NCBI GenBank assembly: GCA_009992215.1
Contig: JAACWB010000006.1
Coordinates: 1 to 62,518, forward strand
DNA: 62,518 nt
From: an archaeon
GTDB lineage: Archaea; Nanobdellota; Nanobdellia; Pacearchaeales; GW2011-AR1
Direction: 5' to 3'
Within the stretch, counting starts at the first letter, position 1, and every line of letters begins with the position of its first letter. A model generated the notes under the pieces. It worked only from the letters and a program-made list of their open reading frames with translations, made no database searches and was not told where the DNA came from. Positions 1,507 through 52,246 of this stretch are shown here, in pieces. Both the position numbers and the translations under genes were made by a program.

Positions 1507-3600
1507 TTACATTCTTTGATAGTGCCCGTTTCTTGGAGAGAAAATGTCACCTTTCTCTTTTAATTTTTGGAGCGATTCTTCTATTTCAGCTTCAGTTAAT
1601 TTCCCTTCGAGTTTTTCCATTATTTTTTCGAATGGAACGATTTCTCCTATTTCTTGAGAGAGTGTTGAAATTGTGTCACGTACAATGTAAACTTTATTTC
1701 TTTGACTGGCTTTCATTGTTCCAGATATTTTGTCTATATCAAACTGACCTGTTTCTTCATCGTATCCTGTTTGTCTAAGATAATATTCTAATAAATTTAT
1801 TGCAACAATTGCATCTTTTTCTTCAACAAATTCTGAGAGCCTGATTCTTGCAGCAGCTTCACTCATACGGATTAAAGAATTTAGTTGTCTAGCAGAAATT
1901 GGAATTGTTCTCATTTCTTGACCTTCAACAACTGCATGATTTCTTAAGTTCACATAAAAGTCACGCATTTTTTTTACTGCGGCGTCAGTTAAATGTGGTT
2001 TTACTTTTTGTCTTGCATAAGCAACATATTTCATGAAAAGTCCTTTTTCAATTAGCATTTCTTTTGCCTCGGTTTGGTGTTCTTCTAAAATATGATTTGC
2101 AACTTTTGTATCATTTTCAATATTTGGCATATCTCTTAATGTGAAAATAACATCGAAACGATTGATTAATGCTGGAGGTAGATTAATTTGTTGAGGGATT
2201 CCTTGATTGGGGTCGAATCTACCAAACTTTGGATTTGCTGCAGCTAGAACGGAAGTTTGTGCATTTAATGTTGCTTGAACGTTGGCTTTGTTAATAGTTA
2301 CAGTTTGTTGTTCCATTGCTTCGTGCATTGAAGACTGGTCTTGTTCTGCCATTTTTTCTAATTCATCAATACAAACAAGTCCTTTGTTTGCAAGAACCAT
2401 TGCTCCCGCTTCAAGTGACCAACCTTTCAAGTATTCATCTCTAACAACTGATGCTGTTAAACCTGCACCTGAAGTTGATTTACCCACAACGTAACGACCT
2501 TTTGGTGAAATATTGGCCATGAACCCTAAAATAACCGATTTTGCAACACCAGGGTCCCCAATCATCATAATGTGAATATCACCACGAGATTTTTGTCCGT
2601 CTTTTTTTTGTTTTTGAACACCACCAAATAATTGTAAAAGTAAGGAAGATTTTATTTCTTCGTAACCCCAAACTGAAGGAGCAATTGAATCTCTTAATAG
2701 TTGAATAATATTTGGTTTTGCAGCTAGTTGTTGAATATGTTCTTCATCTTCTTCAGAAATATCTAGTTCTTCAAAAGTTTCTTCTAAGGGAATAATATTG
2801 TTTACTTCAATTGCAAGTTCGAAACGAGTTGACAATCCTCCTGAAGGAAGTGGCACTGGAACTTCTTTTAGAACACCAATTACTTTTGCACGTGAACCGG
2901 GAGTTGTTCTCTCTTCCATTTTTGGATCAACTAAATCTTCTTTTACAAAAACATTAATTCTTTTTGGTTGGGCTCCTCCGCTTAGCATGTCTGGTGCTTC
3001 TTCAATTACTAATCTTTGAGTATCAACCATTTCTTTTGAAAGAACTCTAAAACCTCCACGTCTACCACATGAACATCTTGAAGGTTCACGGAATTTCTTT
3101 TCAATTTGCAAGACTGAAATAATTGTTCCACAGCTAGGACATTCAAACTTTGCGTTTACAACTTGTGGACGAACGTCAGAAGATTGACGGATAATTCCTT
3201 CCATAACTAGCATTTCGTTTAAGTGTTTTGCACGAATATTTCTAATCATAATGTCGTGTGATTTTGAAACATTAAAGAAACGAACTCTTACTTTTTCAGC
3301 TAGGCCAATTTCTTCAATTGCCATTTCAAGAATTTGAACTGTTTCGTCCGGCCTTTTTATCACTTCTTCAGCCAAAATTGGAGAATGTTCAGCCATTTCT
3401 TGAAAATCAATGTAGATAACTGAATTTTCATTTCTTAGAGAACTCTTTAGGTTTTTTTTGTATGCTTCAATAAATTTCTTACCTTCTAAAATTAATTCTT
3501 CTCTTTCTTGATTAAAATCGTTAATATCTTTGAATTCTTCCTTTTCAGAATAAATTTCGTCATCTCCTATTCCCTCATTGAAGTCTATTTCACCATCCAT
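1507..3600 (-). CDS. mcm: MCM replicative helicase
   Basis: Zn finger CPSCG..CSCG, Walker A GDPGVAKS, Walker B CIDELEKM, arginine-finger region LINRFDVIF. Length 697 aa. Confidence 0.97.
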   Translation of the reverse strand: MDGEIDFNEGIGDDEIYSEKEEFKDINDFNQEREELILEGKKFIEAYKKNLKSSLRNENSVIYIDFQEMAEHSPILAEEVIKRPDETVQILEMAIEEIGLAEKVRVRFFNVSKSHDIMIRNIRAKHLNEMLVMEGIIRQSSDVRPQVVNAKFECPSCGTIISVLQIEKKFREPSRCSCGRRGGFRVLSKEMVDTQRLVIEEAPDMLSGGAQPKRINVFVKEDLVDPKMEERTTPGSRAKVIGVLKEVPVPLPSGGLSTRFELAIEVNNIIPLEETFEELDISEEDEEHIQQLAAKPNIIQLLRDSIAPSVWGYEEIKSSLLLQLFGGVQKQKKDGQKSRGDIHIMMIGDPGVAKSVILGFMANISPKGRYVVGKSTSGAGLTASVVRDEYLKGWSLEAGAMVLANKGLVCIDELEKMAEQDQSSMHEAMEQQTVTINKANVQATLNAQTSVLAAANPKFGRFDPNQGIPQQINLPPALINRFDVIFTLRDMPNIENDTKVANHILEEHQTEAKEMLIEKGLFMKYVAYARQKVKPHLTDAAVKKMRDFYVNLRNHAVVEGQEMRTIPISARQLNSLIRMSEAAARIRLSEFVEEKDAIVAINLLEYYLRQTGYDEETGQFDIDKISGTMKASQRNKVYIVRDTISTLSQEIGEIVPFEKIMEKLEGKLTEAEIEESLQKLKEKGDIFSPRNGHYQRM

Positions 3601-3674
3601 CTAAAAAAAATGTATATACAGTTTATAAAAATTAGTGGAATGAAAGAAGAGTTTTAGAAAAGTATGTTAAAAAA

Positions 3675-4256
3675 TTAAAATTCACCTTTTTTGTAATCAG
3701 CAAGTGCTTCTTTTACATTTTCAAGTAAATTGTCCATTGATTGTTCTAATTGTTCTTTGTTTTTTGTTCCAGTACAAACAAGTTTACCATTACTGAACAA
3801 TAAAAATGTTGCATTTGGGTCTTCTAATTTGTAAACTAATCCGGGGAATTGTTCTGGCTCATATTCTGTGTTTTCCATAGCTAATGCAAGGTAGTTTAAG
3901 TTAAGTTGTAAATTAATTGTTCCTGAAGCTACAATGTTTTGAACTGTAATTTTTGGTTTAATTGTTACTTCAACATTTACTTTTTTTAATTGTTTGATTA
4001 CTTCATCAATTACTTGTCTAACTTGAGTTAATGATTTTGTTCCTGTACAAACCAAGTTTCCCGAAGAGAAAACTAAAACTGCTGACTTTGGTTCTTTAAT
4101 TCTTAAAACTAGTCCAGGGAATGTTTCAGGATTATATTCAGTGTTTGGTTGAGTTCTAGCTAATTTTGTTAGCGGAACTGGTTTTTCCAAAGAAGTAGTA
4201 GCTACAATGTTTTGAATTTTGTATTCAGATTCTTTTTTGTCAGATTTAGCTGCCAT
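3675..4256 (-). CDS. tbp: TATA-box binding protein
   Basis: Two TBP repeats: IQNIVATTSL..FPGLVLRIKEPKSAVLVFSSGNLVCTG and VQNIVASGT..FPGLVYKLEDPNATFLLFSNGKLVCTG. Confidence 0.95.
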   Translation of the reverse strand: MAAKSDKKESEYKIQNIVATTSLEKPVPLTKLARTQPNTEYNPETFPGLVLRIKEPKSAVLVFSSGNLVCTGTKSLTQVRQVIDEVIKQLKKVNVEVTIKPKITVQNIVASGTINLQLNLNYLALAMENTEYEPEQFPGLVYKLEDPNATFLLFSNGKLVCTGTKNKEQLEQSMDNLLENVKEALADYKKGEF

Positions 4257-4335: not shown

Positions 4336-5661
4336 TTGAATTTTATGGTAAAGGAAAATCTTTATTTGAAATTTGATGAAATACCAAAATGTTTTTATGA
4401 TTCCTCTTTGGATATAGGAGATTGGGAAGAGAAAACAATTTCTGAACTTAAACGAATTGGATATTTCAAAGAAAAAAAAGGCGAGGAGATTATTTTCCCG
4501 GGTGGAGCAAATGTTTTTTTGGATGATTTTTTTGATTACGAACATGATCCTGTTAGATATATTAAAAATAATCATTCAAAATTGAAAAAAGAATATGAGA
4601 AAAAACAAAAGGAAGAGAAGGAAAGGCAAGAAAGACTAGGGACAGATACGAAAATGATTTATTCTGATGAAGATTTGAGACAATTTTTGTATAATAAAGG
4701 AGTTGATATTCCAACAAATGAAATGAGTAGGGAATTTTATTTGAAAAACAGGATGCAAAAAGAAGAGAGGAGCAATTTGGTTAAGTTACTTCGTGGTTAT
4801 TCTGAACATTTAATTAGAGAATATGAAGTTAGTAGCAGGGGTTATGCTTTGTTTGGAATTGGAACTTCAACTTTTTCTGATTCTTATTTTGATTTTTGGA
4901 AAAATAGATTTAATGAAGATGGATTTGATGAAAATACAGAATTTATTGAAAAATCATGGGCAATTGTTGAACAAAATATTTCTAGGCCAAAGACTTATGA
5001 AGAATATGTTGAGCAATGTTTTAATTTTAGTTCAGCTTTTGATGAGAAAATACGGCCTTCTTCAAAAGAACAATTTGAATTTATAAAAAAAGAAGAACAG
5101 GAAAGATATTTGAAGAAAAAAAATCTTGGTGAATATTTTAAGAGAAAGGGAGAAGATTTAGATTTTTCTATTTGTCTTGAAGAATTATATGGTGAAACTT
5201 GTGGAAATCTTCCAACTAATAGATATGTTGAAAATAAAAATTCTGTTCGTTTTTCTAAAAGACAAATTGATGTATTCAAAGAAAATTTTCTTGAATATTT
5301 GAAATTAAATAATTTTGATTTTAAAGAAGAAATTAGTTTTTTGGATTCAGGAAATTGGGACAAAGATGAAAAAGGAAATTTGATTAGAATGAAAAATATT
5401 AAAGATGTTAAATCTGGAGTTTCAACAGTTCGTGTTAATTTTACTGAAGGAAGAAGTATGCATTTTTATTTCCAGAATGAAATGGCAGATATGAAATTAA
5501 AAAAAGAGAGGATTGACAATAGTTATTTTGTTCAACTTATGCGTGGTCAATTTCATTTTGATTCTCTTTTTGATTCTGTTAATGATTTAGAAGCAGCAAT
5601 TAGAAATGGAGAAAAAACTGGTGTTTTTGAAAATCCTCTTGTGTTGAAATGGAAAAAATAA
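4336..5661 (+). CDS. hypothetical protein (Lys/Glu-rich)
   Basis: Long ORF of 441 aa with no motif I recognise. Confidence 0.5.
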   Translation: MNFMVKENLYLKFDEIPKCFYDSSLDIGDWEEKTISELKRIGYFKEKKGEEIIFPGGANVFLDDFFDYEHDPVRYIKNNHSKLKKEYEKKQKEEKERQERLGTDTKMIYSDEDLRQFLYNKGVDIPTNEMSREFYLKNRMQKEERSNLVKLLRGYSEHLIREYEVSSRGYALFGIGTSTFSDSYFDFWKNRFNEDGFDENTEFIEKSWAIVEQNISRPKTYEEYVEQCFNFSSAFDEKIRPSSKEQFEFIKKEEQERYLKKKNLGEYFKRKGEDLDFSICLEELYGETCGNLPTNRYVENKNSVRFSKRQIDVFKENFLEYLKLNNFDFKEEISFLDSGNWDKDEKGNLIRMKNIKDVKSGVSTVRVNFTEGRSMHFYFQNEMADMKLKKERIDNSYFVQLMRGQFHFDSLFDSVNDLEAAIRNGEKTGVFENPLVLKWKK

Positions 5662-6750
5662 TTATTTCTTCTTTGTAAATTCTTTATTCACATATTCAAT
5701 TAACTCTCTTCCTTTTAGTTCAATTGTTTGTGGGCCAACTCTAGTATAGAAGAGTTCATCTTTGCCTTCAATTATAAAAACTGGAGAGTTTGATTTTTTA
5801 CATTCAACTCTTAAAATGTGTCTATCTTTAATTGGAATTAATTTTGATTCAATTAATCCTAAATATTTTTTTCCTATTTTTTGTTTTAGCAAATTTGTGA
5901 AATGTAAAAAGAATTTATCTTCGTTTTCAAATTTGTCTGCTTCTATTCCTAGAATTTTTATTTTGTCTGTTATTCCAATGTAGAGAGTTCCACCTTTTGT
6001 GTTTAGAAAAGCAGCGATTGTTTTTAGAACGCTTTGTTCAATTTTTTTATCTGGTTGATTTGTGTATAAGTTTGTTCTTAGTGTCGCTTTGAATTCTTGC
6101 GTTTCATTTTCTCCTTCTTTTATTTCTTTTATTATTTCTTCAATTGAAACTGATTTTTTGAAAAAGTCTTTATTTACAAATTTTAATTTCTGAATTAGCT
6201 TATGAATTATTGAAAAATGTGTTTTCATGTATACAAAACCTATTATTGAAGCTAATGCTGCGCCGATTGAAACATAAATTAAATTTTGCATTGTGAAAAG
6301 ATAAATTCCTTCATTTAATTCATGGTGTAAAACTAGTTTCAAAAGATATTTTGCAATTTCTAGGAGGGCACCAAATGTTATTGCAAGACTAAAAGAGAAG
6401 AGAATTATTAAAAAATAATTTTTTTTGATTTGGTTCGTTGAATAAAGAATAAACAAAAATAAAAGTCCAATTAATCCGACACCTACTCCGAATAAAATAG
6501 GCGCAATAATTCCAGTTAGTTTTCCAAGAGACAAAGTTATCAATACAAAAATTAAAAGTGTAATTTCAAATGAAGTGGGAAATTTTATTTTTGTGTATTT
6601 TTTTAATATTTGTGGAGTGAAAGTTAGGAAGAGTAAAAATATATTTGTTGAAGCGATGTGCCACAGATGATTATGTAAAGAAGTAATGATTGAAAGAATT
6701 AAAACTAGTTTCACTGAAATTGAGAGGTATTTATTAAAATTTTCAGACAT
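5662..6750 (-). CDS. multi-pass membrane protein with C-terminal AlbA_2/Schlafen-type domain
   Basis: The first ~190 aa are hydrophobic helices. The C-terminus carries ENETQEFKATLRTNLYT..LKTIAAFLNTKGGTLYIGITD, typical of the AlbA_2 (divergent AAA_4) domain. Confidence 0.55.
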   Translation of the reverse strand: MSENFNKYLSISVKLVLILSIITSLHNHLWHIASTNIFLLFLTFTPQILKKYTKIKFPTSFEITLLIFVLITLSLGKLTGIIAPILFGVGVGLIGLLFLFILYSTNQIKKNYFLIILFSFSLAITFGALLEIAKYLLKLVLHHELNEGIYLFTMQNLIYVSIGAALASIIGFVYMKTHFSIIHKLIQKLKFVNKDFFKKSVSIEEIIKEIKEGENETQEFKATLRTNLYTNQPDKKIEQSVLKTIAAFLNTKGGTLYIGITDKIKILGIEADKFENEDKFFLHFTNLLKQKIGKKYLGLIESKLIPIKDRHILRVECKKSNSPVFIIEGKDELFYTRVGPQTIELKGRELIEYVNKEFTKKK

Positions 6751-7591: not shown

Positions 7592-8617
7592 ATGAATATT
7601 ATCAAATATGGGGGTTCTTATTTTGATATAGGGAGAAAAATAGGTATTGATTATAAAAGACAAGGTATGATTTTAGATAGACCTCTTGAAAAGAAAATAT
7701 TTTTCACTCAATTAAAAATTTTTAAGAAGTTTTATCCAGAATACTTGGAAGAATTAAGAGGAATAGCAGAAGGTATCGGGTGTGAATATCAACAAGTTTT
7801 ACAATCTTTTTTACAAAGAGTTGTTTTACCTAAAAAAAAGAATGAGAAAAAGAGAAAACATTGCAGTATTTTTGGTGTCAAGAATTCTAAGGAATTAATT
7901 GTCGGAAGAAATTATGATTGGATTCCAGAAGCAAAAAAATATTCTAAAATTTATTTTGTGAATAATAAAGAAGCAAATTCTTATTTTGGTTTTAGTGATA
8001 GAGGAATTTGGAAGGAAGGGAAAGTTAATGAATCTGAATTGGAAGTTTATACTGTTGGTGCTTTGAATGAAAATGGATTGTATATAGGATTGACTTGGGG
8101 AGACCCAGTTGATTTTCCTGGAAAGGGAATTGGTTCTGGAGTTTTTATTAAAATGATTGCAGAAAAGTGTTCTAATGTTTCAGATGCAGTAAAACTGTTT
8201 AATAAAGTTCCTTTGAATTTCTCTAAAAATTATTTTGTTGTAGATTCTGAAGGAAATATGAAAGTTTTGGAGTTCAATGGAAAAAAGAAAAAAGTTGTTG
8301 AACCTAAAGAAGATATTTTGATAAAGACAAATCATTATTTGAATTATGAATTGTCAAAAAATGATTCTGTGTTAAAAAAGAAAGGAAATTCGACATTTTT
8401 GAGGTATTATGAAATTTTAAAATATGTTGAAGAAAGAAAGGATAAATTTAAAATTGGTGATGTTAAGAATTTGCTTTGTGATAAGAATAGATACGTTTAC
8501 AGACAAGGCGAAAAGGTAAATACTATTTGGACTTTAGCATTAGATATGACAAAAAGAAAATATTTTATTTATTATGAAAGAAATGGAAAGATTATTTCTA
8601 AGGAGTTGAAATTTTAA
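7592..8617 (+). CDS. peptidase C45 / acyl-CoA:6-APA acyltransferase-like Ntn hydrolase
   Basis: MNIIKYGGSYFDIGRKIG start, internal HCSIFGV..VGRNYDW (propeptide, Cys nucleophile, N-x-D). Start trimmed from the ORF-track 7490 to avoid overlap with the divergent gene. Confidence 0.55.
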   Translation: MNIIKYGGSYFDIGRKIGIDYKRQGMILDRPLEKKIFFTQLKIFKKFYPEYLEELRGIAEGIGCEYQQVLQSFLQRVVLPKKKNEKKRKHCSIFGVKNSKELIVGRNYDWIPEAKKYSKIYFVNNKEANSYFGFSDRGIWKEGKVNESELEVYTVGALNENGLYIGLTWGDPVDFPGKGIGSGVFIKMIAEKCSNVSDAVKLFNKVPLNFSKNYFVVDSEGNMKVLEFNGKKKKVVEPKEDILIKTNHYLNYELSKNDSVLKKKGNSTFLRYYEILKYVEERKDKFKIGDVKNLLCDKNRYVYRQGEKVNTIWTLALDMTKRKYFIYYERNGKIISKELKF

Positions 8618-10326
8618 CCATAACGATAATTTTCGTGTTTTGATTCTTTGAAGTCTTTTTCAATTTCTTCAAGAGTTGCAATTTCGCTTAAAGGTTTGTC
8701 TTCACGTAGTGCAGTTATCCTTGGAAAACGAAGTGCCCAACCTGATTTGTAATTTGGAGAACGTTGTATGTCTTGATAATGAACTGTTACAATAATTTTT
8801 GGTTTTACTTCAATGTCTTTATTTTTTTCTTTTGTAATTAAGGGTCTTAACATTTCTGTTAAATTTTCAAAAGTAATTTTGTTGTCTTCTGTTTCTTTTT
8901 CAGCTACTCCAGTTCCAACTTTTCCTATTTGCAAGTATTCATTTCCTTTTTTACAGGATAGAATGAAACTTGAAATCCATCCTGAACGTTTACCTGTTCC
9001 CCATTCTCCGCCGGTTATTACCAAATCTAATTCATTTTCTTCTGGTTTTAATTTTAGCATGTGTCCAACTCTTCTTCCTGGTTTGTATTCAGCATCTAAA
9101 TTTTTTAACATGATTCCTTCTTGTTTATCTTTTAGTGCTTTTTTGTAGAATTTTTCTACTTCTTTTTTGTCACTTGTTATCTTGTGGTGTGATGCAATTA
9201 ATTTATATGGGTGACTCGTCACAATTTTTTCAATTAGTTCTCTTCTTTTTTTGAAAGGAACATCTAATTGGCTTTTTCCGTTGTAATAGAGAACATCAAA
9301 AACATTTATTTCAACTGGAAGTTTCTTTTGTAATTCTTCGATTTTATGTTTTCTTCTAATTCTTTGAGAAATTTTTTGAAAGTCTGTATAATGTTTTGTT
9401 TTCTTGTCATAACCTACTGCTTCAGAATCTAGAATAAATGAATCTCCTTTGATGAATTTATTTATGTATCCTTCAACTTCTGGAAATTGTTTAGTTACAT
9501 TTTCTAAACGTCTTGTGAAAAGTGTTACTTTGTTGTTTGCTTTATGTATTAATAATCTGAAACCGTCGTATTTGTATTCTATTGCGATTGGCTTACCCAA
9601 TTTTTTGAATGCATCATCAATATCATTTGCTTTTTGTGCAAGCATTGCCTTAATTGGTTTACCTACTTCAAGTTTTATTTTGTCAAGTTCAGTTATTTTT
9701 TTCTTCATGGCAATTTTGAAAACAACAGATAAATCATTTGAACGATCAATTGCTCTTTGAATTCTGTCTTCGTAGTCTTTATTGTTGTTGAAGAATGCTT
9801 TTAGTAATGCATATTTTATTGTTGACTCTTGAACACCAATTCTTAAATCTCCAATTAATGTTCGAACCAAATATTTTGCTTCAATAGGGTCAGAAGAAGT
9901 TAATAATTCTGTAATTAGACTTAATTTTTTTTCAATTGTTCCTGCCCCGATTAATTCAGGTAATTTTCTTAAATTTGTTAAAACTTTATCAACGGTAATT
10001 ATATGTGAAGCAAGAGTCATTTGTTTTTTCTTTTTTGTTAATTCTCTTGCAACTTCACCAATGTCCCCTATTTTTTTCCATTCAGCCATTACTTTTTTTG
10101 AATCGGTTCCAGTTGATTTTGAAATTGCTTTTATTGCAAGTTGGTTTGAAATTCCAATTCTTCTTTCATCATATTCTGGGTAAATGTCTCCAAGAATTAA
10201 ATAAATTAAATCTGCATCTTCTTCTTTAACATGTTCAAAGAATTTTGAGAGGATGTCTATTTTTTCTAGACGTTTAGTAGTAGAAGAAAGTTCATCATAA
10301 AGAATTGCTAATTTGTTGTACCTCAT
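8614..10326 (-). CDS. lig: ATP-dependent DNA ligase (Lig1 type)
   Basis: Adenylation motif EYKYDGFRL, also EGIMLK and LKLKPE. Length 570 aa with an N-terminal DNA-binding domain. Confidence 0.95.
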   Translation of the reverse strand: MRYNKLAILYDELSSTTKRLEKIDILSKFFEHVKEEDADLIYLILGDIYPEYDERRIGISNQLAIKAISKSTGTDSKKVMAEWKKIGDIGEVARELTKKKKQMTLASHIITVDKVLTNLRKLPELIGAGTIEKKLSLITELLTSSDPIEAKYLVRTLIGDLRIGVQESTIKYALLKAFFNNNKDYEDRIQRAIDRSNDLSVVFKIAMKKKITELDKIKLEVGKPIKAMLAQKANDIDDAFKKLGKPIAIEYKYDGFRLLIHKANNKVTLFTRRLENVTKQFPEVEGYINKFIKGDSFILDSEAVGYDKKTKHYTDFQKISQRIRRKHKIEELQKKLPVEINVFDVLYYNGKSQLDVPFKKRRELIEKIVTSHPYKLIASHHKITSDKKEVEKFYKKALKDKQEGIMLKNLDAEYKPGRRVGHMLKLKPEENELDLVITGGEWGTGKRSGWISSFILSCKKGNEYLQIGKVGTGVAEKETEDNKITFENLTEMLRPLITKEKNKDIEVKPKIIVTVHYQDIQRSPNYKSGWALRFPRITALREDKPLSEIATLEEIEKDFKESKHENYRYG

Positions 10327-17227: not shown

Positions 17228-17317
17228 AAAAATTTCTTTGTTATTTTTCACGCAAAAATCGCGGAATTCACTTCCCGCTCATAAAATTTACGAAGAAATT
17301 TTCTTATTCAATTAAAA
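17228..17317 (+). repeat. C-tract hairpin repeat, copy H (diverged core)
   Basis: aaaaatttctttgttat ... atttacgaagaaattttct ... attaaaac. Confidence 0.6.
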
Positions 17318-22909: not shown

Positions 22910-23029
22910 TAGCTTGTAGTTTGTAGCTGGAAGCTTGTAGCTGAAAAGTTCTTCGTTATAATATTTCAAACACCCGCCCAATTTGGAATGCCCGCCCTAA
23001 TTACGAAGAAATTTTCTAAATGGAATTAG
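22910..23029 (+). repeat. C-tract hairpin repeat, copy A (with TAGCTTGTAG left flank)
   Basis: tagcttgtag..gaaaagttcttcgttata..cacccgcccaatttggaatgcccgccc..taattacgaagaaattttc..gaattag. Confidence 0.8.
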
Positions 23030-23076: not shown

Positions 23077-24096
23077 TTAAATTTGTTCTTTTAGCGTGCA
23101 GTCTTTTGGTTTTTTGTCTTCACGCATACGAAGAAAAACTGGAGCTCGCATCATTTTGTCTTTTGTTATTTCCAAAAATTTTGCTTCACAAACAAGTTTT
23201 GGTTTTACAAAGATTGTGCCCTTTGGAAGAGATTGTATTTCGGGTTTTTCTGTTTTAATTTTTTCTAATTTTGAGAGTATTTCTTCTTGTTCAATTTCTG
23301 AGAAACCTGTTCCAACTTTTCCAATGTAAATTAATTTTTTATTTTCATAAACTGCTAAGAGGAGTGTTGAGAGTTTTCTTTTTTCTTGGGTATAACCAAT
23401 AATTATTGCATCAATTGAATTTGTATTTTTTATTTTTATCCAAGCATTTCTTCTTTTTCCTTCGTAATATCTTTCTAATGGATTTTTTGCAATAACACCT
23501 TCTCCTCCTTTTTTAGCAATTTTATCAAATAATAATTTTCCATTTTTTGAAGATGTAACTAGTTTCAAATTTTTATTGAAAATTTCTTCGTTATTGTTTG
23601 CGCCCATTTTTCGTGAATTTGCGCCCACCCTCCCTAATTCCGAAGAAATTTTCTTTTTGTTAACATTTACATTTAATATTGATTTTAATATTTGAAATCT
23701 TTCTTTTTGTGAAAGTTGTGTTAATTTTTTCTCTTCGAGTTCTAAAATATCAAAAGCAACGTAAGTTGCAGGAGAAGATTTTGAACGTTTTTCTATTAAG
23801 TCTTTATCTTCAAGTAAATCTCTGTGTTGAAGTAAATTGAAACGTGAAATTCCTGTTTTATCAAAAATAACTATTTCTCCATCAAGAACACAAGAACTTG
23901 CTTTTATGTTTTTTTCAAAATTAAATTCTGGATATCGGTGTGTTATGTCATTATTTCTTCTGTTAATTATTTTAATTGTTGAATTATTTTTGTAGAGAAT
24001 TCCTCTTGTTCCATCAAGTTTTGTTTCGTACACGAAGTTTTTTATTTTTAGGTCTTCTTTTGTTCCTAATTTTGCAAGCATCGGATTATATTTCAT
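23077..24096 (-). CDS. minimal ATP-dependent DNA ligase (adenylation + OB domains) carrying an in-frame repeat insertion
   Basis: Motif I KLDGTRG, motif III AFDIL, motif IV EGVIAK, motif V WIKIK. Residues ~148-173 (KKISSELGRVGANSRKMGANNNEEIF) are encoded by a copy of the intergenic repeat. Confidence 0.8.
   Translation of the reverse strand: MKYNPMLAKLGTKEDLKIKNFVYETKLDGTRGILYKNNSTIKIINRRNNDITHRYPEFNFEKNIKASSCVLDGEIVIFDKTGISRFNLLQHRDLLEDKDLIEKRSKSSPATYVAFDILELEEKKLTQLSQKERFQILKSILNVNVNKKKISSELGRVGANSRKMGANNNEEIFNKNLKLVTSSKNGKLLFDKIAKKGGEGVIAKNPLERYYEGKRRNAWIKIKNTNSIDAIIIGYTQEKRKLSTLLLAVYENKKLIYIGKVGTGFSEIEQEEILSKLEKIKTEKPEIQSLPKGTIFVKPKLVCEAKFLEITKDKMMRAPVFLRMREDKKPKDCTLKEQI
23578..23653 (+). 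repeat. C-tract hairpin repeat, copy B (inside ligase CDS)
   Basis: gaaaatttcttcgttattgtttgcgcccatttttcgtgaatttgcgcccaccctccctaattccgaagaaattttc. Confidence 0.8.
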
Positions 24097-24832: not shown

Positions 24833-24850
24833 TTTTTGAATTTTAACTGA

Positions 24851-24919
24851 TTGATACTTGTTAAAGAAATTTCTCATGTAGCGCTGCTACACCACGAAAT
24901 TTTTTAACTGCGTCTGAAT
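24851..24919 (+). repeat. post-stop hairpin module, subtype 1, copy a
   Basis: ttgatacttgttaaagaaatttctcatgtagcgctgctacaccacgaaattttttaactgcgtctgaat, 19 nt after the pcm stop. Confidence 0.8.
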
Positions 24920-25909: not shown

Positions 25910-25940
25910 CAAACTAATTCAAAAATAATTCAAAATTGGG
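25910..25940 (+). repeat. isolated AAACTAATTCAAAAATAATTCAAAATTGGG box
   Basis: Same 3' box as copies c, d and e, located ~50 nt upstream of valS. Confidence 0.6.
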
Positions 25941-29080: not shown

Positions 29081-29485
29081 ATGAATAAAATAATTGCAGC
29101 TGGACCAGTCATTGTTTCAGAAGGAAGACTTTTGGTTGCTCATGATGGGAAGGATGATTTTTTTAAGATTCCTGGTGGAAAGCCTGAAGCTCTAGAAACT
29201 TTAGAAGAATGTGTTCATCGTGAGTTAAAGGAAGAAACTGGTTACAAGTGCGAACTTATAGGAAAATTATCTACAAAATATTTGAAGAAAAAACCGCAAA
29301 CTGGAGAAGAGATTGATATTGAGTTATATCATTTTAGTGCAAAAATTATTGGAGAAATAAAAAGTTATGAATCATTTTTTCATAATAATCATCATGTTCA
29401 TTGGTTGCCTGTTTCTGAGATTAAAGAAGGAAAATATAAAGTTGCGCCAAATATAGAATTTTTAATTGAGAAAGGTGAGATTTAA
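29081..29485 (+). CDS. NUDIX hydrolase
   Basis: Nudix box GGKPEALETLEECVHRELKEETGY. Start trimmed to MNKIIAAG. Confidence 0.85.
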   Translation: MNKIIAAGPVIVSEGRLLVAHDGKDDFFKIPGGKPEALETLEECVHRELKEETGYKCELIGKLSTKYLKKKPQTGEEIDIELYHFSAKIIGEIKSYESFFHNNHHVHWLPVSEIKEGKYKVAPNIEFLIEKGEI

Positions 29486-30081
29486 TTCCCTTTACAATAT
29501 TCTTTAACAATTTCCATGTCTTTTAGCCATTCAGGTTCAAGTGCACGTTTGTAAATTATTGCTGCTGGGTGAAAGAGTGGAATTAGTTTTATTTTCAAAC
29601 CATCAATTTCTACTTCTTGTACTTGTCCGTGAACTTGTGTAATTCCTGGTTGGTTTTTCATGTCTTCTACATTTGTTTTTGCGAGAAAAAATTTTGTTGC
29701 GTAGTTTCCAAGAGAACAAATTATTTTTGGTTTCATCTCTTTTATTTGTTTTAGGAGCCAAGGTGTGTGTGTTTTGATTTCTTCAGTTGTGGGGTCACGA
29801 TTCTCAGGTGGTCGGCATTTCAAAATATTTGCAATATAAATTTCATCTATTGACAAACCTACTTCATTTAATAGTTTGTCAAGATTTTTTCCTGCGGCTC
29901 CACAAAAAGGAATTCCTTCTTTGTCTTCGTTTCTTCCTGGAGCTTCACCAACAAAAAGAATTTCTGCATTTTTGTTTCCTCTTCCAACGACAATATTTGT
30001 ACAGTCTTTGAAGAGAGGACACCTTTTTACCAAAGCTGCTTCATAAAAATTAAATTCGGGGGATTTTTTGTTTGATTCCAT
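29482..30081 (-). CDS. udg: uracil-DNA glycosylase family 4
   Basis: CPLFKDC and FVGEAPGRNEDKEGIPFCGAAGKNLDKLL. Confidence 0.9.
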   Translation of the reverse strand: MESNKKSPEFNFYEAALVKRCPLFKDCTNIVVGRGNKNAEILFVGEAPGRNEDKEGIPFCGAAGKNLDKLLNEVGLSIDEIYIANILKCRPPENRDPTTEEIKTHTPWLLKQIKEMKPKIICSLGNYATKFFLAKTNVEDMKNQPGITQVHGQVQEVEIDGLKIKLIPLFHPAAIIYKRALEPEWLKDMEIVKEYCKGN

Positions 30082-30117
30082 GTTTGTTAAAATGAAGAAT
30101 TGTTTATATAAATTTTT

Positions 30118-30212
30118 AAAATTTCTTCGTTATTTCTCACGCCCTTAGTTTTGAAACGCGCCCAAGTTTTTAGCCCGCCCTAATTACGAAGAAATTTTCT
30201 ATACTGATTAAG
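30118..30212 (+). repeat. C-tract hairpin repeat, copy C
   Basis: aaaatttcttcgttat..cacgccc..gcgccc..cccgccctaattacgaagaaattttct..gattaag. Confidence 0.8.
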
Positions 30213-35384: not shown

Positions 35385-35470
35385 CTTGTAGAAAGTAGAG
35401 TATAAATCAGTTTTTTCCCGCCACCAATTTTTCCCCCGACCGCCCACCCCAAAGGCATGATTGAGTTAAG
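35382..35470 (+). repeat. C-tract repeat, copy J (no AT arms)
   Basis: tagcttgtag..cccgccaccaatttttcccccgaccgcccacccc..gagttaag. The first 3 nt are the scpB stop codon. Confidence 0.6.
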
Positions 35471-39187: not shown

Positions 39188-39303
39188 TTTTTTAATTTTG
39201 TTTCTTTTTGGCTAAAATCTACAAATTTCATTACTCGTGTAGCGATGCTACACAACGCAATAAAATTCATAGCATTTTAGCTCAAAAATAATTCAAAATT
39301 GGG
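39188..39303 (+). terminator. post-stop hairpin module, subtype 2, copy d
   Basis: Starts at the Rpo11 stop. GCTAAAAT (39211..39218) pairs with ATTTTAGC (39274..39281). Inner hairpin GTGTAGC GAT GCTACAC (39237..39253). Confidence 0.6.
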
Positions 39304-39312
39304 ATTGGATTT

Positions 39313-39401
39313 GAAATTTTCTTCGTTATTATTCGCGCCCGAATTTTTGAAACGCGTCCCGCCCAACCCTATTTACGAAGATATTTTCTGATTTAGTTAA
39401 G
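39313..39401 (+). repeat. C-tract hairpin repeat, copy D
   Basis: gaaattttcttcgttatt..cgcgccc..gcgtcccgcccaaccct..atttacgaagatattttc..agttaag. Confidence 0.8.
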
Positions 39402-39917: not shown

Positions 39918-40304
39918 ATGACAAGTAGGTTTTATGGTATTGTTATTCAGGATGGAAAAGTTTTGTCCGTTGAAACTGGAGGTTATACTGTTTTTCCTGG
40001 AGGAGAGCCAAAGGAATTTGAGTCTGGATGTGATTGTTTGATTAGGGAATTTAGTGAAGAATTATCTGGTACTAAAATAAAAATTGAAAATCATTATCGT
40101 GATTTTCTTTCAATTGACCCTAAAAATGATGAACCTTTTTTATGCAAGAATTATTTTGTCACGTTATCTTCTCCTCTTGGAAAACCTTCATTGGAAGTTT
40201 ATAATGTTAGATGGATTGACAGTACTTTTTTAGACGTCTTGAAATTTTCTGACAGTTCCAAGAAAACTTTGGTTTCATTAATTCAGGATGGTTTTGTAAA
40301 ATGA
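39918..40304 (+). CDS. small NUDIX-like protein (tandem paralog)
   Basis: PGGEPKEFESGCDCLIREFSEELSG. Overlaps the radB start by 4 nt. Confidence 0.6.
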   Translation: MTSRFYGIVIQDGKVLSVETGGYTVFPGGEPKEFESGCDCLIREFSEELSGTKIKIENHYRDFLSIDPKNDEPFLCKNYFVTLSSPLGKPSLEVYNVRWIDSTFLDVLKFSDSSKKTLVSLIQDGFVK

Positions 40305-41026
40305 ATGAAAGGATTTCAACTGGAAGTTTTGATTTGAATGATTGGCTTTGCGGAGGTTATGAAAAAGGGATTGTTACAATGATTGTTGGGCCGCCAGGTT
40401 CAGGAAAAAGTAATTTGTCTATTTTGTCTGCTTGTAGTCAAGCAAGGGACAAGAAGGTGATTTTTATTGATACTGAAGGAGGCTTTTCAATTGAGAGAGT
40501 TAAACAAATTGTTGGAATTGATTATGAAAATATACTTCAAAATATTTTAATTTTGAATCCGACAAATTTTAATGAACAAAAGGAATCTTTTGAAAAATTG
40601 CTTGGTTATTTGAAAAGTGACAAAATTGGTTTAATTGTAGTGGATTCCATGGCAATGCTTTATCGACTGGAACTTGGGGACGCAATTAGTTTAGGGGATC
40701 AAGAAAAAATAAATGAAATTAATCGTGATGTTGCAAAACAAATGAGAACACTTGTAGAAATTTCAAGAAAAAGGGAGATTCCTGTTTTAATTACGAATCA
40801 AGTTTATTCAGAGTTTTTGAGTTTTGAAGATTTGAAAAATGGGGTTGAAAAGGAAACAAATATTGTTGGTGGAGATTTATTCAAATATTGGAGTAAATGT
40901 ATAATTGAATTAAAAAATAATCGTTCTCGTCGTGCAATTTTACTTAAGCATAGAAGTCTTGAGAAAGGAGAGTTTCCTTTTGAGATTAGGAATGAAGGTA
41001 TTTTTAGAAGGAAAGGAATTTTTTAG
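40301..41026 (+). CDS. radB: RadB / RadA-paralog recombinase
   Basis: GGYEKGIVTMIVGPPGSGKSN is a Walker A, with LIVVDS as Walker B. Confidence 0.75.
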   Translation: MNERISTGSFDLNDWLCGGYEKGIVTMIVGPPGSGKSNLSILSACSQARDKKVIFIDTEGGFSIERVKQIVGIDYENILQNILILNPTNFNEQKESFEKLLGYLKSDKIGLIVVDSMAMLYRLELGDAISLGDQEKINEINRDVAKQMRTLVEISRKREIPVLITNQVYSEFLSFEDLKNGVEKETNIVGGDLFKYWSKCIIELKNNRSRRAILLKHRSLEKGEFPFEIRNEGIFRRKGIF

Positions 41027-41141
41027 CTAGTGAGATGGAAGTTAGAAGTTTTGGGAAAATTTCTTTGCTATTGATATTAGGGCACCCGCCCAATCTGGAA
41101 TACCCGCCCTATTTACGAAGAAATTTTCTTGAGAAATTAAG
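41024..41141 (+). repeat. C-tract hairpin repeat, copy E
   Basis: tagctagtgag..gaaaatttctttgctatt..cacccgcccaatctggaatacccgccc..atttacgaagaaattttc..aattaag. The first 3 nt are the radB stop codon. Confidence 0.8.
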
Positions 41142-41180
41142 GGGAAGAAATACAAATTAGTTTGGAGTTGAAAGTATTTG

Positions 41181-41263
41181 GAAAATAAATTTTTGCAATT
41201 AATATTCAAAACAGCCCGCCCAACCCGCCCAATACCAAAAATTTATTTTTTAATTTAATTAAG
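41181..41263 (+). repeat. C-tract hairpin repeat, copy F (subfamily 2)
   Basis: gaaaataaatttttgcaattaatattcaaaacagcccgcccaacccgcccaataccaaaaatttatttt..aattaag. Confidence 0.85.
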
Positions 41264-43915: not shown

Positions 43916-43932
43916 ATTTGTAATCTTTTTCA

Positions 43933-44000
43933 TTGATACTTGTTAAAGAAATTTCTTATGTAGCGCTGCTACACTGCGAAATTTTTTAACGGCGTCTAAA
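43933..44000 (+). repeat. post-stop hairpin module, subtype 1, copy b
   Basis: Same sequence as copy a with 5 mismatches, 18 nt after the FKBP stop. Confidence 0.8.
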
Positions 44001-44104
44001 TAAAAAATCTTTACAAATTAGAAATAAGTGAGCCCTTGGGCGAGCGATTTATTTTGTTTTTTTATTTCATAAATCCATATAAATTGGATTTTGTTTTTTT
44101 CTTT

Positions 44105-45310
44105 ATGGAAAATATTAAATTTGGAAAGTCTGGGAAAGTTGGTAAGATTGATTTTAAGAGTAAAGATATTAGTCGGCTTTCGAAGTTTGAATCAATTAGT
44201 CCGCCTTCTATTTTTATTGGTTCTAAATTGACGTATCCAAATGTTAATGTTGGTATTTTGTCTCCCGTCGGAGAATTTGAAGATGCACAAGTTTATGATG
44301 ATTGCGAGAACTGGGCAAAAAATAATTATTCAATTAATGATGTTGTAAAACTTAGAACGGGTTTACTTAATTCAAGATTTAAATCAAAAGTACAGGATGT
44401 GAGATTGAATAAAAAATTTGTTGAAATTGCAAAGGATATTGCTCTTTCAAGTAAACCAGTTGATGTTGAAATTGAACTAAAAAACAAGATTAGTTCAGGA
44501 AATTTGAAAGATAATGTTTTAACGCCACACGGGATGAAAGGAGAATTAAAGGACGCAAAGATTACTTCTAATGTTAAAATTAATAATTTTGTTGATAAAG
44601 TAATTCATGATGAAATTAAATCTATAGAAGGAATGAATCTTTTGTATAAGAAAGGAATTAATGAATACAGTTTGTCAAAAATTTTGTCTATTGGAGTTTT
44701 GGGTTTAAGTAAGGACAAAAAGTTGGTTCCAACTAGGTGGAGTATAACGGCAACTGATGATGCTATTTCTAAAGAAATTTTGAAAAAAATAAAAGGATAT
44801 AATGAAATTGAAAATTATGAATTAATGTTTGGAGAATTTTTAGGGAACCAATATTTAATTTTACTTTTTCCTAGCGTATTTAGTTTTGAGTTGTTTGAGT
44901 TTTATTATCCTGGGTCTAGTTGGAATCCGGGAAAGGATTTTAAGGCAAGTCATGATTATGAAGGATTTTTGGGAAGAAAGGAATATGCATTTAATTGTGC
45001 TGGAGGATATTACGCAACGAGGTTTCCAATAACAGAGTATTTAGAGAAAATAAAACGTCAGGCGGGAGTTTTAGTTGTTAGGCTTGAAACACCTTCATAT
45101 TGGGCAAGTTTAGGGGTTTGGGTTGTTCGTGAGAGTGTTAGAAAAGCAATTAACAAAGGAAGTTTAAAATTTAGTGACAAGGAAGAATTTTTAGACTCTG
45201 TTAAAAAAATTGCAAAAATCAAATATGATTTTGACATTAACTTAATCTATGAAAAAAGTTGGTTTTTGAATTACGCTGAAAAGCAGAAATCTTTGGGTAA
45301 ATGGTTTTAG
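44105..45310 (+). CDS. nreA: Nre-family DNA repair protein with C-terminal PIP box
   Basis: SPPSIFIGSKLTYPNVNVGILSP, VPTRWSITATDD and terminal QKSLGKWF. Start trimmed to MENIKFG. Confidence 0.6.
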   Translation: MENIKFGKSGKVGKIDFKSKDISRLSKFESISPPSIFIGSKLTYPNVNVGILSPVGEFEDAQVYDDCENWAKNNYSINDVVKLRTGLLNSRFKSKVQDVRLNKKFVEIAKDIALSSKPVDVEIELKNKISSGNLKDNVLTPHGMKGELKDAKITSNVKINNFVDKVIHDEIKSIEGMNLLYKKGINEYSLSKILSIGVLGLSKDKKLVPTRWSITATDDAISKEILKKIKGYNEIENYELMFGEFLGNQYLILLFPSVFSFELFEFYYPGSSWNPGKDFKASHDYEGFLGRKEYAFNCAGGYYATRFPITEYLEKIKRQAGVLVVRLETPSYWASLGVWVVRESVRKAINKGSLKFSDKEEFLDSVKKIAKIKYDFDINLIYEKSWFLNYAEKQKSLGKWF

Positions 45311-46794: not shown

Positions 46795-47205
46795 TTATTT
46801 TTCTAGCATTAAAAAAACAAAGTCGGCAACAGTTTCTCTTATTTTTTGATTGTCTTTGTTGTATGAAAAATAAATTTTTGGTTTACTAAAATCAATTCCC
46901 ATTATCAAGAAATATTCGGTGTTTTGATTAAAGACAATTATTTCATCTAGTTGGGGAGTATTATATTTTTTTCTTGGAGCAATGTTTGTCACATTTATGT
47001 TATAGAATTTTTCAAATGTGTTTAATATATTTTCTAGTTTTGAATAATTTTCAATAAATAAAGTTTCATAGCCAAGTTCGACAGTTTCTGTTTTTCCATA
47101 TTTTTTTATTTCTAAATTTTTGTAAATAGAATTATCTCCAAATGGTAGATTAGGTTTTGTTTTTGGTAAATTCCGTTTTATGTATCTACTTAAGCCTTTA
47201 TTCAT
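46795..47205 (-). CDS. hypothetical protein
   Basis: ORF that overlaps the topA stop by 8 nt. Confidence 0.5.
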   Translation of the reverse strand: MNKGLSRYIKRNLPKTKPNLPFGDNSIYKNLEIKKYGKTETVELGYETLFIENYSKLENILNTFEKFYNINVTNIAPRKKYNTPQLDEIIVFNQNTEYFLIMGIDFSKPKIYFSYNKDNQKIRETVADFVFLMLEK

Positions 47206-52179: not shown

Positions 52180-52202
52180 TTTGTTTATGCGACCATGTTA
52201 AT

Positions 52203-52246
52203 CACGTCCCAAATTTTTGCTACGTGTTCTTCCCGCCCTAATTGGG
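52203..52246 (+). repeat. C-tract repeat fragment, copy K
   Basis: cacgtcccaaatttttgctacgtgttcttcccgccctaattggg. Confidence 0.45.

What the first reader, a model, noticed from the sequence alone, without database searches (positions are those of the whole stretch)
23578..23653. Palindromic intergenic repeat inserted in-frame inside a DNA ligase gene
The ~75-nt element that otherwise occurs only between genes (compare 30118..30199) lies within the 339-aa minimal ATP-dependent ligase. On the coding (minus) strand it reads through without a stop as KISSELGRVGANSRKMGANNNEEIF. The insertion sits between nucleotidyltransferase motifs III (AFDIL) and IV (EGVIAK). This parallels the Rickettsia palindromic elements (RPE), which are known to insert in-frame into protein genes. 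I do not know of a described archaeal equivalent.
Basis: partly seen in the sequence, partly recalled or inferred. Interest (0 to 1): 0.7.

Follow-up and report, generated by a model that had tools for sequence, protein, structure and literature searches.

The report
Hairpin repeat inserted in-frame in ligase
A 90-base hairpin repeat that normally lies between genes sits inside a small DNA-ligase gene of an AT-rich DPANN-type archaeon and is read through as a 30-residue loop; a second copy does the same in a tRNA-modification gene, giving a well-supported but not unprecedented archaeal counterpart of the "selfish DNA inside genes" of Rickettsia.

Summary
A repeat family with 13-17-nt terminal inverted repeats (GAAAATTTCTTCG...CGAAGAAATTTTC), an interior rich in CGCCC boxes and a ~14-nt tail has six full copies in the window. 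Five are intergenic. One (23578-23667) lies inside the 339-aa two-domain ATP-dependent ligase gene.

All 119 other ligase homologues examined lack exactly these 30 residues, including syntenic orthologues at about 73% identity outside the insert. AlphaFold gives a confident ligase fold with only residues 145-173 unstructured. Every column invariant across the 23 aligned ligases is kept, and divergence matches that of neighbouring genes.

In the frame used, all eight other copies carry stop codons. Seven have TAA where the ligase copy has GAA. The same allele occurs in at least four independent assemblies.

A second in-frame 90-nt copy sits in the MnmA gene of the same genome, just outside the window.

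Verdict: a new member of a known kind (RPE/MITE-like in-frame insertion). The mobilisation mechanism is unknown. All copies share one orientation and hold every G-quadruplex motif in the window.

The parts
23077..24096 (-). Host gene: a two-domain (nucleotidyltransferase + OB) LigD-like ATP-dependent DNA ligase, 339 aa
   Evidence: ORF. Pfam domains. Foldseek matches to archaeal, LigD and Lig1 ligases at E down to 2e-25. Conserved synteny PCMT-ligase-Sec61beta-NAC.
23578..23667 (+). Inserted block of 90 nt, equal to residues N144-F173 of the ligase. Its boundaries are ambiguous by about 3 nt.
   Evidence: 30 extra residues relative to every homologue. Removing the block gives ATA TTA AAT GTA|AAT AAA AAT TTG (ILNV|NKNL), the same length as the orthologues' IINSSKNL.
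23578..23653 (+). Hairpin core of the element (76 nt). It has perfect 13-bp arms at 23578-23590 and 23641-23653, and two GCGCCC boxes at 23600 and 23621.
   Evidence: RNA fold of the sense strand is -24.1 kcal/mol, z = -6.1. Leave-one-out nhmmer E=2e-13.
23654..23667 (+). Element tail TTTTTGTTAACATT. On the sense strand it reads AAT GTT AAC AAA AA, encoding N V N K K.
   Evidence: A TTAA(G) motif lies about 9-13 nt beyond the right arm in most of the nine copies aligned, the ligase copy included. The MnmA copy has the same GTTAAT tail.
23638..23640 (-). Codon GAA (E153). Seven of eight other copies have the stop TAA here and one has CAA. The plus-strand base at 23640 is C instead of the family's A.
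22943..23016 (+). Intergenic family copy between the ligase stop and the Sec61beta gene
   Evidence: This spacer is 214 nt here, against 42 nt in L002 and 46 nt in L013. Two Logan contigs break inside this copy.
17228..17303 (+). Intergenic family copy upstream of the MetRS gene; the most degenerate full copy
30117..30199 (+).
39313..39388 (+). Intergenic family copy between the RNA polymerase L-like and NUDIX genes
41055..41128 (+). Intergenic family copy downstream of the RadA/RadB-like gene
8614..10326 (-). Canonical three-domain archaeal DNA ligase (570 aa). Its presence shows that the insert-bearing ligase is not the only ligase.
   Evidence: Pfam DNA_ligase_A_N, A_M and A_C.

Best explanation
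A lineage-specific, non-autonomous dispersed repeat inserted into a permissive surface loop of the accessory LigD-like ligase. The loop lies between the helix that follows motif IIIa and the strand that precedes motif IV. The repeat unit is a ~76-nt hairpin with 13-17-nt inverted-repeat arms, 2-3 internal CGCCC boxes and a ~14-nt tail, about 90 nt in all.

Shown: the block is 90 nt, in frame and free of stops. It is absent from all homologues. It is homologous to the intergenic copies. The gene is otherwise intact.

Inferred: the block is transcribed and translated as a 30-residue, Gly/Asn/Ser/Arg/Lys-rich disordered loop, and the enzyme stays active. Selection kept, or selected beforehand, a variant lacking the family's TAA.

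The same process put a 90-nt copy in frame into MnmA of the same genome. The element is best seen as selfish DNA tolerated where it does not break the protein, as with RPEs.

How it moves is not established. The uniform orientation of all copies and the lack of consistent target-site duplications hint at a strand-specific, hairpin-dependent (single-strand DNA) mechanism rather than classical cut-and-paste.
For: Family membership:
- leave-one-out E=2e-13; 8 paired-arm matches against 0.07 expected.

The block is an insertion, not an ancestral segment:
- motif IIIa-to-IV spacing is 84 here and 54 in 115 of 119 other homologues.
- HMMER splits the match to Mycobacterium tuberculosis LigD exactly at the insert.
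- syntenic orthologous loci L001, L002 and L013 lack both the insert and the family.
- the reconstructed empty site has the same length as the orthologues.

The gene is intact:
- 51 invariant columns are all kept, including KxDG, DGE, FD, EGxxxK and WxKxK.
- divergence is like that of the neighbouring genes.
- AlphaFold mean pLDDT is 86, with only residues 145-173 below 50, and Foldseek matches ligases.

The frame is kept open:
- the eight other copies have 1-5 stops in the equivalent frame, and 7 of 8 have TAA where the ligase copy has GAA.
- excluding the ligase copy, only 1 of 21 G-rich-strand frames is open, against 11 of 21 on the C-rich strand.

Not an assembly artefact:
- the DNA is identical in JGI 3300008255, Logan SRR29616068 and Logan SRR6053076. 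The same protein is in JGI 3300007987 and on a 96.9-kb contig.

Recurrence:
- MnmA (L022 5436-6611) carries a 74-nt hairpin plus tail. It adds 30 aa relative to orthologues at 80-81% identity, in the same orientation, and folds at -22 kcal/mol.
Against: - There is no transcript, peptide or enzyme-activity evidence.
- No insert-free allele from the same species is available. The closest orthologue is only about 73% identical, so the age of the insertion is unknown.
- A canonical 570-aa ligase is encoded 14 kb away. Loss of function of the small ligase might therefore be tolerated for some time.
- The low pLDDT of the insert is partly forced by the empty alignment columns.
- Flanking direct repeats are seen at only 2 of 9 copies.
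- No transposase was found among the 20 window ORFs scanned.
- No autonomous partner was found in the public collections. Mobility is therefore inferred only from the dispersed distribution and the filled-versus-empty comparison.
Confidence: 0.8

Rival explanations
1. The insertion inactivated the small ligase. The gene is a young pseudogene whose frame is still open by chance, tolerated because the canonical ligase at 8614..10326 does the essential work.
For: A second, complete three-domain ligase is present. The insert adds 30 residues and a -24 kcal/mol hairpin in the middle of the nucleotidyltransferase domain. There are no expression data.
Against: All invariant catalytic columns are retained and divergence equals that of neighbouring genes. 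The frame is open although every other copy has stops in it, and the family's TAA is replaced by GAA. The allele is identical across at least four samples. MnmA, normally a single-copy housekeeping gene, carries the same kind of insert.
Confidence: 0.08
2. The element has been co-opted. The copy in the ligase (and in MnmA) regulates the host gene through its mRNA hairpin or G-rich tract, for example by translational pausing, control of mRNA stability or a G-quadruplex switch. Alternatively the loop gives the protein a new interaction surface.
For: The arms of both genic copies remain perfectly or compensatorily paired: ligase 13/13 bp, and MnmA GAAAATTTATCT/AGATAAATTTTC. In both host genes the sense strand is the G-rich strand that carries a G-quadruplex-type motif.
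Against: No homologue needs the insert. The peptide is low-complexity, and I saw no PCNA-interaction (PIP) motif in it by eye. Orientation is the same for all copies whatever the strand of the flanking genes, so it need not reflect the host genes. Retained pairing may simply mean the insertion is young.
Confidence: 0.08
3. The block is removed before or after translation, as an archaeal bulge-helix-bulge intron or a mini-intein, so it never appears in the mature enzyme.
For: Archaea do splice introns from a few protein genes. The element forms a strong stem.
Against: The stem has no bulge-helix-bulge geometry: it is 13 uninterrupted base pairs. The hairpin alone is 76 nt, so its removal would shift the frame. 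An intron would not need to be stop-free and a multiple of three, yet both genic copies are. Thirty residues are far too few for an intein, and no intein motifs are present.
Confidence: 0.02
4. The segment is ancestral to the ligase or an assembly chimera, and the intergenic copies are unrelated or derive from the gene.
For: None beyond the formal possibility.
Against: 119 homologues lack it. Identical DNA appears in independent assemblies. Related copies occur in other organisms' intergenic DNA at L004/L010 and L011.
Confidence: 0.02

Closest known systems
Rickettsia palindromic elements (RPE; Ogata et al. 2000, as reviewed in PMC2229807 and PMC10969869)
   Same: A short palindromic dispersed repeat found both between genes and in frame inside conserved housekeeping genes. 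The insert falls in a non-structured surface segment and the host ORF stays intact. More than one gene is hit in one genome (ligase and MnmA).
   Different: RPEs are about 100-150 bp and each family encodes a conserved peptide in an open frame. Here the family is about 90 nt, and in the frame used the other copies carry stops. The host is archaeal and the sequence is unrelated. The interior is GC-rich boxes in a 29% GC genome. All copies share one orientation.
[quoted passage not shown]
   Same: An archaeal palindromic repeat family with copies fused in frame into protein genes. It is the direct archaeal precedent.
   Different: It comes from a different phylum (a euryarchaeal methanogen versus a DPANN-type lineage). 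The arm pattern of the present family found no archaeal match other than L004 among 185,579 species-representative genomes. I could not read the original paper, so no finer comparison was made.
Prokaryotic MITEs (for example Correia/NEMIS, ERIC, RUP; PMC2229807, PMC10969869, PMC11602168)
   Same: Small, non-coding and multi-copy, with terminal inverted repeats, a long stem-loop transcript, mostly intergenic location and occasional in-frame gene fusions. High MITE densities (about 100-150 per Mb) have already been reported for a Woesearchaeal genome (PMC11602168). That is comparable to the roughly 8 full copies in about 78 kb seen here.
   Different: There is no consistent target-site duplication and no partner IS or transposase was found. 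The unit is asymmetric (one-sided tail) and all copies share one orientation.
REP/BIME elements mobilised by RAYT, and IS200/IS605-derived palindrome-associated elements (my knowledge)
   Same: Hairpin-centred repeats without target-site duplications, with an asymmetric structure and a strand or orientation bias of the kind expected for single-strand DNA mobilisation.
   Different: No HUH (Y1) transposase or RAYT gene was seen. REPs are shorter (about 35 nt) and are not reported as in-frame inserts. A conserved target tetranucleotide was not identified.

Membership tests
MITE (miniature inverted-repeat transposable element) | Small (under ~300 bp), multi-copy, with no transposase ORF | tested here: met
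   Units are 74-83 nt plus a tail. There are 6 full copies in the window, 2 more in the flanking contigs L020 and L022, and 3 distinct copies in L004 (also seen as L010) and L011.
MITE (miniature inverted-repeat transposable element) | Terminal inverted repeats | tested here: met
   GAAAATTTCTTCGTWAT / ATWACGAAGAAATTTTC, with 13-17 bp paired. The arm columns are invariant in alignment A1.
MITE (miniature inverted-repeat transposable element) | Target-site duplication flanking each copy | tested here: not met
   Only 2 of 9 copies have an imperfect flanking direct repeat (8 nt with 7/8 matching at the ligase copy; 6 nt with 5/6 at 39313). Such matches are expected by chance in AT-rich DNA. With the tail counted as part of the unit, the ligase site needs no duplication.
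MITE (miniature inverted-repeat transposable element) | A cognate autonomous IS with the same terminal repeats | tested here: inconclusive
   None was found in the window (20 ORFs scanned). None was found among the few collection hits. The complete genome was not available.
RPE-type in-frame palindromic coding repeat | A copy inside a conserved protein gene, in frame, with the host ORF preserved and orthologues lacking it | tested here: met
   Ligase. MnmA of the same genome.
RPE-type in-frame palindromic coding repeat | The insert lies in a surface or non-structured region compatible with the fold | tested here: met
   In the AlphaFold model the rest of the protein is confident and only residues 145-173 have pLDDT below 50, with no secondary structure. 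This is a prediction only, and it is biased by the gap columns in the alignment.
RPE-type in-frame palindromic coding repeat | The family as a whole has an open frame encoding a conserved peptide | tested here: not met
   In the ligase frame all 8 other copies have 1-5 stops. Open frames are common only on the opposite, C-rich strand: 13 of 24 frames counting all eight copies scored.
IS200/IS605- or RAYT-mobilised hairpin repeats (REP/PATE) | Associated HUH (Y1) transposase gene and a conserved target or cleavage tetranucleotide | not tested
   No such gene appeared in the two Pfam scans, but the scan was not exhaustive and the genome is incomplete. The uniform orientation and the absence of target-site duplications are only compatible with this family.
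Archaeal bulge-helix-bulge intron / intein | A bulge-helix-bulge motif at the boundaries, or intein splicing motifs with a size of at least ~130 aa | tested here: not met
   The stem is uninterrupted and the core is 76 nt, which is not a multiple of 3. The insert is only 30 aa.
ATP-dependent DNA ligase, LigD-like two-domain type (host gene) | Nucleotidyltransferase motifs I, III, IIIa, IV and V plus an OB domain, without an N-terminal DNA-binding domain | tested here: met
   Pfam A_M and A_C only. K26xDGxR, D72GE, F115D, E199GxxxK and W219xKxK are all invariant columns that are kept. The best PDB sequence hits are M. tuberculosis LigD ligase domains.

The most novel reading that the evidence does not exclude
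The repeats may not be mere junk. They may be a strand-oriented family of modules capable of forming G-quadruplexes or acting as iterons (GGGCGGG-type boxes held in an AT-rich hairpin). All of them lie with the G-rich strand on one chromosomal strand, against the local GC skew. They would spread by a replication-coupled single-strand mechanism and could serve a chromosome-level function, such as replication or transcription punctuation or a protein-binding array. In-frame landing in permissive loops (ligase, MnmA and a clade-wide MnmA hot-spot loop) would then be a recurrent source of new Gly/Arg-rich protein segments in DPANN archaea.
Probability: 0.12. Interest if true: 0.7.

Novelty: new member of a known kind. 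Interest (0 to 1): 0.45.

Why it matters
It gives a clean, well-controlled archaeal (DPANN-type) example of a hairpin repeat being absorbed into proteins. The evidence includes a filled site compared with empty sites in syntenic orthologues, a stop-to-sense difference at exactly the codon that would otherwise truncate the host, and recurrence in a second housekeeping gene.

Such inserts inflate and diversify proteins in tiny, streamlined genomes. They can mislead annotation and homology searches: HMMER splits the ligase into two hits at the insert. They also break assemblies, since two contigs end inside a copy.

The strict common orientation of the copies, and the fact that they hold every G-quadruplex motif in a 29% GC region, offer a testable handle on how such elements move or what they do. 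The ligase with and without its 30-residue loop is a simple system for asking how much insertion a minimal ligase tolerates.

Tried and rejected
- **Rfam.** No family matches the elements, either in the whole window at gathering thresholds or in a related G-rich intergenic stretch of L001 at E<=1.
- **Collection scans with the arm pattern.**
  - Viral contigs: nothing.
  - Genome representatives: one archaeal contig plus chance Parabacteroides hits.
  - Metagenome contigs: only L010 and L011 are real.
  - The caps for the genome and metagenome scans are exhausted, so no genome-wide census was possible.
- **Peptide search for other proteins carrying the insert.**
  - The 41-aa query found no candidate sharing three 5-residue words.
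  - This is a weak negative, because even the window's own protein was not returned.
- **Target-site duplications.** Inconsistent.
- **blastn-short of the elements against the syntenic orthologous loci L001, L002 and L013.** Only chance 10-14-nt words were found. An eye-catching resemblance of L001 14595-14631 to the element interior is therefore not statistically supported.
- **Transposase hunt.** None among the 20 window ORFs scanned.
- **Intron, intein, assembly artefact and ancestral segment.** Each was considered and rejected; see the rival explanations.
- **Position of the loop relative to bound DNA.** The model coordinates could not be inspected, so this was not assessed.

Full report
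**Context.** The window is 28-31% GC. Its genes are archaeal: MCM, NAC, Sec61beta, eRF1, an Nre protein, a RadA/B-like protein, a TFS-like zinc ribbon and aminoacyl-tRNA synthetases. The named relatives of its proteins are Woesearchaeota, Pacearchaeota and Nanoarchaeota MAGs. It is therefore a DPANN-type archaeal contig, JGI Ga0100403_1000152, 62,968 nt.

**The observation.** The ORF 23077..24096(-) encodes a 339-aa protein with only the adenylation and OB domains of ATP-dependent ligases. Inside it, 23578-23653 is a 76-nt element. Its ends, GAAAATTTCTTCG and CGAAGAAATTTTC, are perfect inverted repeats, and its interior holds two GCGCCC boxes.

- Five further full copies lie at 17228-17303, 22943-23016, 30117-30199, 39313-39388 and 41055-41128, all between genes.
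- The loose single-arm search is not above chance: 19 matches against 14.7 expected.
- The paired-arm pattern is far above chance: 8 matches at 6 loci against 0.07 expected.
- A profile built without the ligase copy recovers it end to end at E=2e-13.
- The minus-strand reading KISSELGRVGANSRKMGANNNEEIF is correct.

**It is an insertion.**

- In an alignment with 22 homologues (45-75% identity), 30 residues are present only in the window's protein.
- Across the best 120 hits, the distance from motif IIIa (FDIL) to motif IV (EGVIAK) is 54 residues in 115, 55 in one, 58 in two, unscored in one, and 84 only here.
- HMMER breaks the match to the M. tuberculosis LigD ligase domain exactly at the insert.
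- Three orthologous loci (L001, L002, L013) share the gene order PCMT-ligase-Sec61beta-NAC. They contain neither the insert nor any copy of the family in about 20 kb each.
- At codon level, removing 23578-23667 leaves ...ATA TTA AAT GTA|AAT AAA AAT TTG... (ILNV|NKNL). This matches the length of the orthologues' IINSSKNL.
- The extra 14 nt beyond the hairpin (TTTTTGTTAACATT) correspond to a tail with a TTAA(G) motif found at the same offset in most copies.

The unit is thus about 90 nt and asymmetric. No target-site duplication needs to be invoked, and none is consistently present.

**The gene is alive.**

- All 51 columns invariant across the 23 aligned ligases, this one included, are kept.
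- Identity to the L002 orthologue is 67%, or about 73% without the insert. Thirteen neighbouring genes were compared with the three orthologous loci; 11 found a match in L002, at 45-82% identity.
- AlphaFold2 gives mean pLDDT 86. The only segment below 50 is residues 145-173, with no secondary structure, between helix 130-140 and strand 177-179.
- The model matches archaeal, LigD and Lig1 ligases.
- Caveat: the insert has no alignment depth, so its low confidence is partly built in. Its Gly/Asn/Ser/Arg/Lys-rich composition fits a loop.

In the standard motif scheme (my knowledge), LDGEIV at residues 70-76 is motif III and AFDIL is motif IIIa. The insert therefore lies between IIIa and IV.

**Evidence that the frame is maintained.**

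- Read in the equivalent frame with their tails, all eight other copies (five in the window, plus L004, L011a and L011b) have 1-5 stops.
- Seven have TAA directly after the arm TTCTTCG, where the ligase copy has GAA (E153). One intergenic copy in another organism has CAA, so stop-free variants exist.
- Excluding the ligase copy, the G-rich strand, which is the sense strand in the ligase, is open in only 1 of 21 frames. The C-rich strand is open in 11 of 21.
- The copy therefore sits in the unfavourable orientation and is still open in exactly the frame used.

**Not an artefact.** The ligase region is identical base for base in contigs from JGI 3300008255, Logan SRR29616068 and Logan SRR6053076. 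The same protein is in JGI 3300007987 and on a 96,908-nt contig (sources listed: NCBI, JGI/IMG, ENA).

**Essentiality.** The window also encodes a canonical 570-aa three-domain ligase at 8614..10326(-). The host of the insert is therefore an accessory LigD-like enzyme. This leaves some room for the pseudogene rival, but the points above argue against it.

**Recurrence.** Contigs overlapping the window's ends add about 15 kb of the same genome.

- L020 holds one more intergenic copy (2702-2773).
- L022 holds a copy inside the MnmA (tRNA 2-thiouridylase) gene, which spans 5436-6611.
- The MnmA copy is a 74-nt hairpin at 5841-5914 with arms GAAAATTTATCT and AGATAAATTTTC. These differ from the family consensus on both sides yet still pair. 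It folds at -22 kcal/mol and is preceded by the same GTTAA tail.
- It reads ...KVNLKENLSQKGRAGRVSAFRDVKNKDKF... in frame.
- The TGHYA-to-KDQSYF distance is 55, against 23-25 in the closest orthologues (80-81% identity). That is again +30 residues, or 90 nt.

At least two housekeeping genes of this genome therefore carry in-frame copies, in different frames within the hairpin.

**Distribution and nature.**

- The family is rare in public data. Exact arm-pattern scans found only one Crystal Geyser archaeal contig (L004, also seen as L010) and L011, which has two copies flanking one gene. Nothing was found in viral contigs.
- Rfam has no matching family.
- Copies are 60-80% identical in the interior, while the arms are nearly invariant.
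- All eight full copies, and the related C-box elements, have the C-rich strand on the window's plus strand, whatever the direction of the neighbouring genes.
- The plus strand nevertheless has positive GC skew in 13 of 15 bins.
- With about 86% of the window coding, the excess of intergenic copies implies purifying selection or a target preference.
- No transposase was seen.

I therefore describe the element as MITE/RPE-like in behaviour. Its mobilisation mechanism is unresolved. The one-sided tail, the lack of target-site duplications and the uniform orientation are compatible with a strand-specific hairpin-based mechanism, but that is inference.

**Comparison with the known.**

- In-frame palindromic repeats are established for Rickettsia and Wolbachia. 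In archaea they are established for Methanocaldococcus jannaschii (Suyama et al. 2005, cited in PMC2229807 and PMC2996958, with a review in PMC10969869).
- A survey has reported very high MITE densities in a Woesearchaeal genome (PMC11602168).
- This case is therefore a new member of a known kind, not a new category.
- It differs from RPEs in lacking family-wide coding potential in the frame used, in its GC-box interior and in its orientation bias.

**Verdict.** Novelty is modest. Interest is raised somewhat by the stop-to-sense codon, the second genic copy and the strand-oriented G-tract pattern.

Noticed in passing
window minus strand: 22973-22997, 23603-23634, 30142-30180, 35417-35450, 39338-39369, 41085-41109, 41215-41230, 61135-61150: All 8 potential G-quadruplex motifs in the window (four runs of G>=3, loops <=20 nt) lie on the minus strand, and all sit inside repeat elements. 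Shuffles expect 0.14 such motifs. The plus strand overall has more GGG runs (411) than CCC runs (189), so the bias runs against the background.
   Followed up: partly
window 41180-41263 and 61100-61183: This is a second repeat family (94% identical pair) with different AT-rich arms (AAAATAAATTTTTG / CAAAAATTTATTTT). Its core has the same CCCGCCC boxes and reads GGGCGGGTTGGGCGGG on the minus strand. It lies in the same orientation as the main family.
   Followed up: partly
L022 5436-6611 (MnmA of the same genome, just left of the window) and homologues P0123-P0241: The MnmA loop between TGHYARIKK and YELHRAKDESKDQSYF is a clade-wide insertion hot spot.
- The spacing is 23-25 residues in 74 of 108 homologues, but reaches 76 in others.
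- Many inserts are Gly/Arg-rich, and some have EIF...KISS ends typical of AT-rich palindromic arms (P0135, P0157, P0201).
- The L023 insert (3026-3135) weakly matches this family (nhmmer E=0.02).
- It is undecided whether this reflects one ancient insertion or repeated hits.
   Followed up: partly
L001 10655-10790 (ligase orthologue P0005) and L024 10391-10534 (MnmA P0128), both from sample JGI 3300041075: In a related organism, both the small ligase (at a different loop, in the OB domain) and MnmA carry in-frame inserts. Both end in an (ACTCACAA)x3-4 tandem that encodes HKLTNSQTHKL. Ligase homologues P0007, P0011 and P0014 have shorter inserts at the same OB-domain loop.
   Followed up: partly
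window 8614-10326(-): A canonical three-domain archaeal DNA ligase (570 aa) lies in the same window as the LigD-like ligase. MCM (1507-3600), an Nre protein (44036-45310), a type IA topoisomerase (47198-49648), a RadA/B-like ATPase (40301-41026) and UDG (29482-30081) are nearby, so the region is rich in replication and repair genes.
   Followed up: no
window 24835-24919 and 43917-44001; also L001 14838-14860: An 86%-identical repeat pair lies directly after stop codons. It contains a GC-rich palindrome (GTAGCGCTGCTAC) between GAAATTTC-type arms, and a similar motif occurs in a related genome. These are possibly terminator-like or 3'-end hairpins.
   Followed up: no
window 25910-25936, 56169-56195, 39273-39299; L004 ~555-582; L011 ~3715-3740: The motif CAAACTAATTCAAAAATAATTCAAAAT recurs in intergenic DNA, three times directly beside a copy of the hairpin family. 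A similar TTTTGAATTATTTTT motif occurs in L001. It is possibly a promoter or terminator element.
   Followed up: no
window 58853-58933 and 52178-52245; L022 5330-5385: These are degenerate, arm-less relatives of the element interior (CGCGTCCC...CCCTCCC type) in intergenic DNA, in the same orientation. The 184-aa ORF at 58769-59323 that overlaps the first one is an artefact: the real TFS-like gene starts near 59015.
   Followed up: partly
L016 and L017 (Logan contigs), right ends, equivalent to window ~22990-23016: Two independent short-read assemblies break inside the intergenic copy just downstream of the ligase. This is as expected if near-identical copies of that subfamily exist elsewhere in the genome: 22971-23017 and 41083-41129 are 94% identical.
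   Followed up: no
L011 2889-2962 and 3779-3854: In a related organism, two family copies in the same orientation bracket a single 228-aa gene (2968-3654) containing an HExxH motif. It is unclear whether this has any meaning, for example as a composite unit.
   Followed up: no
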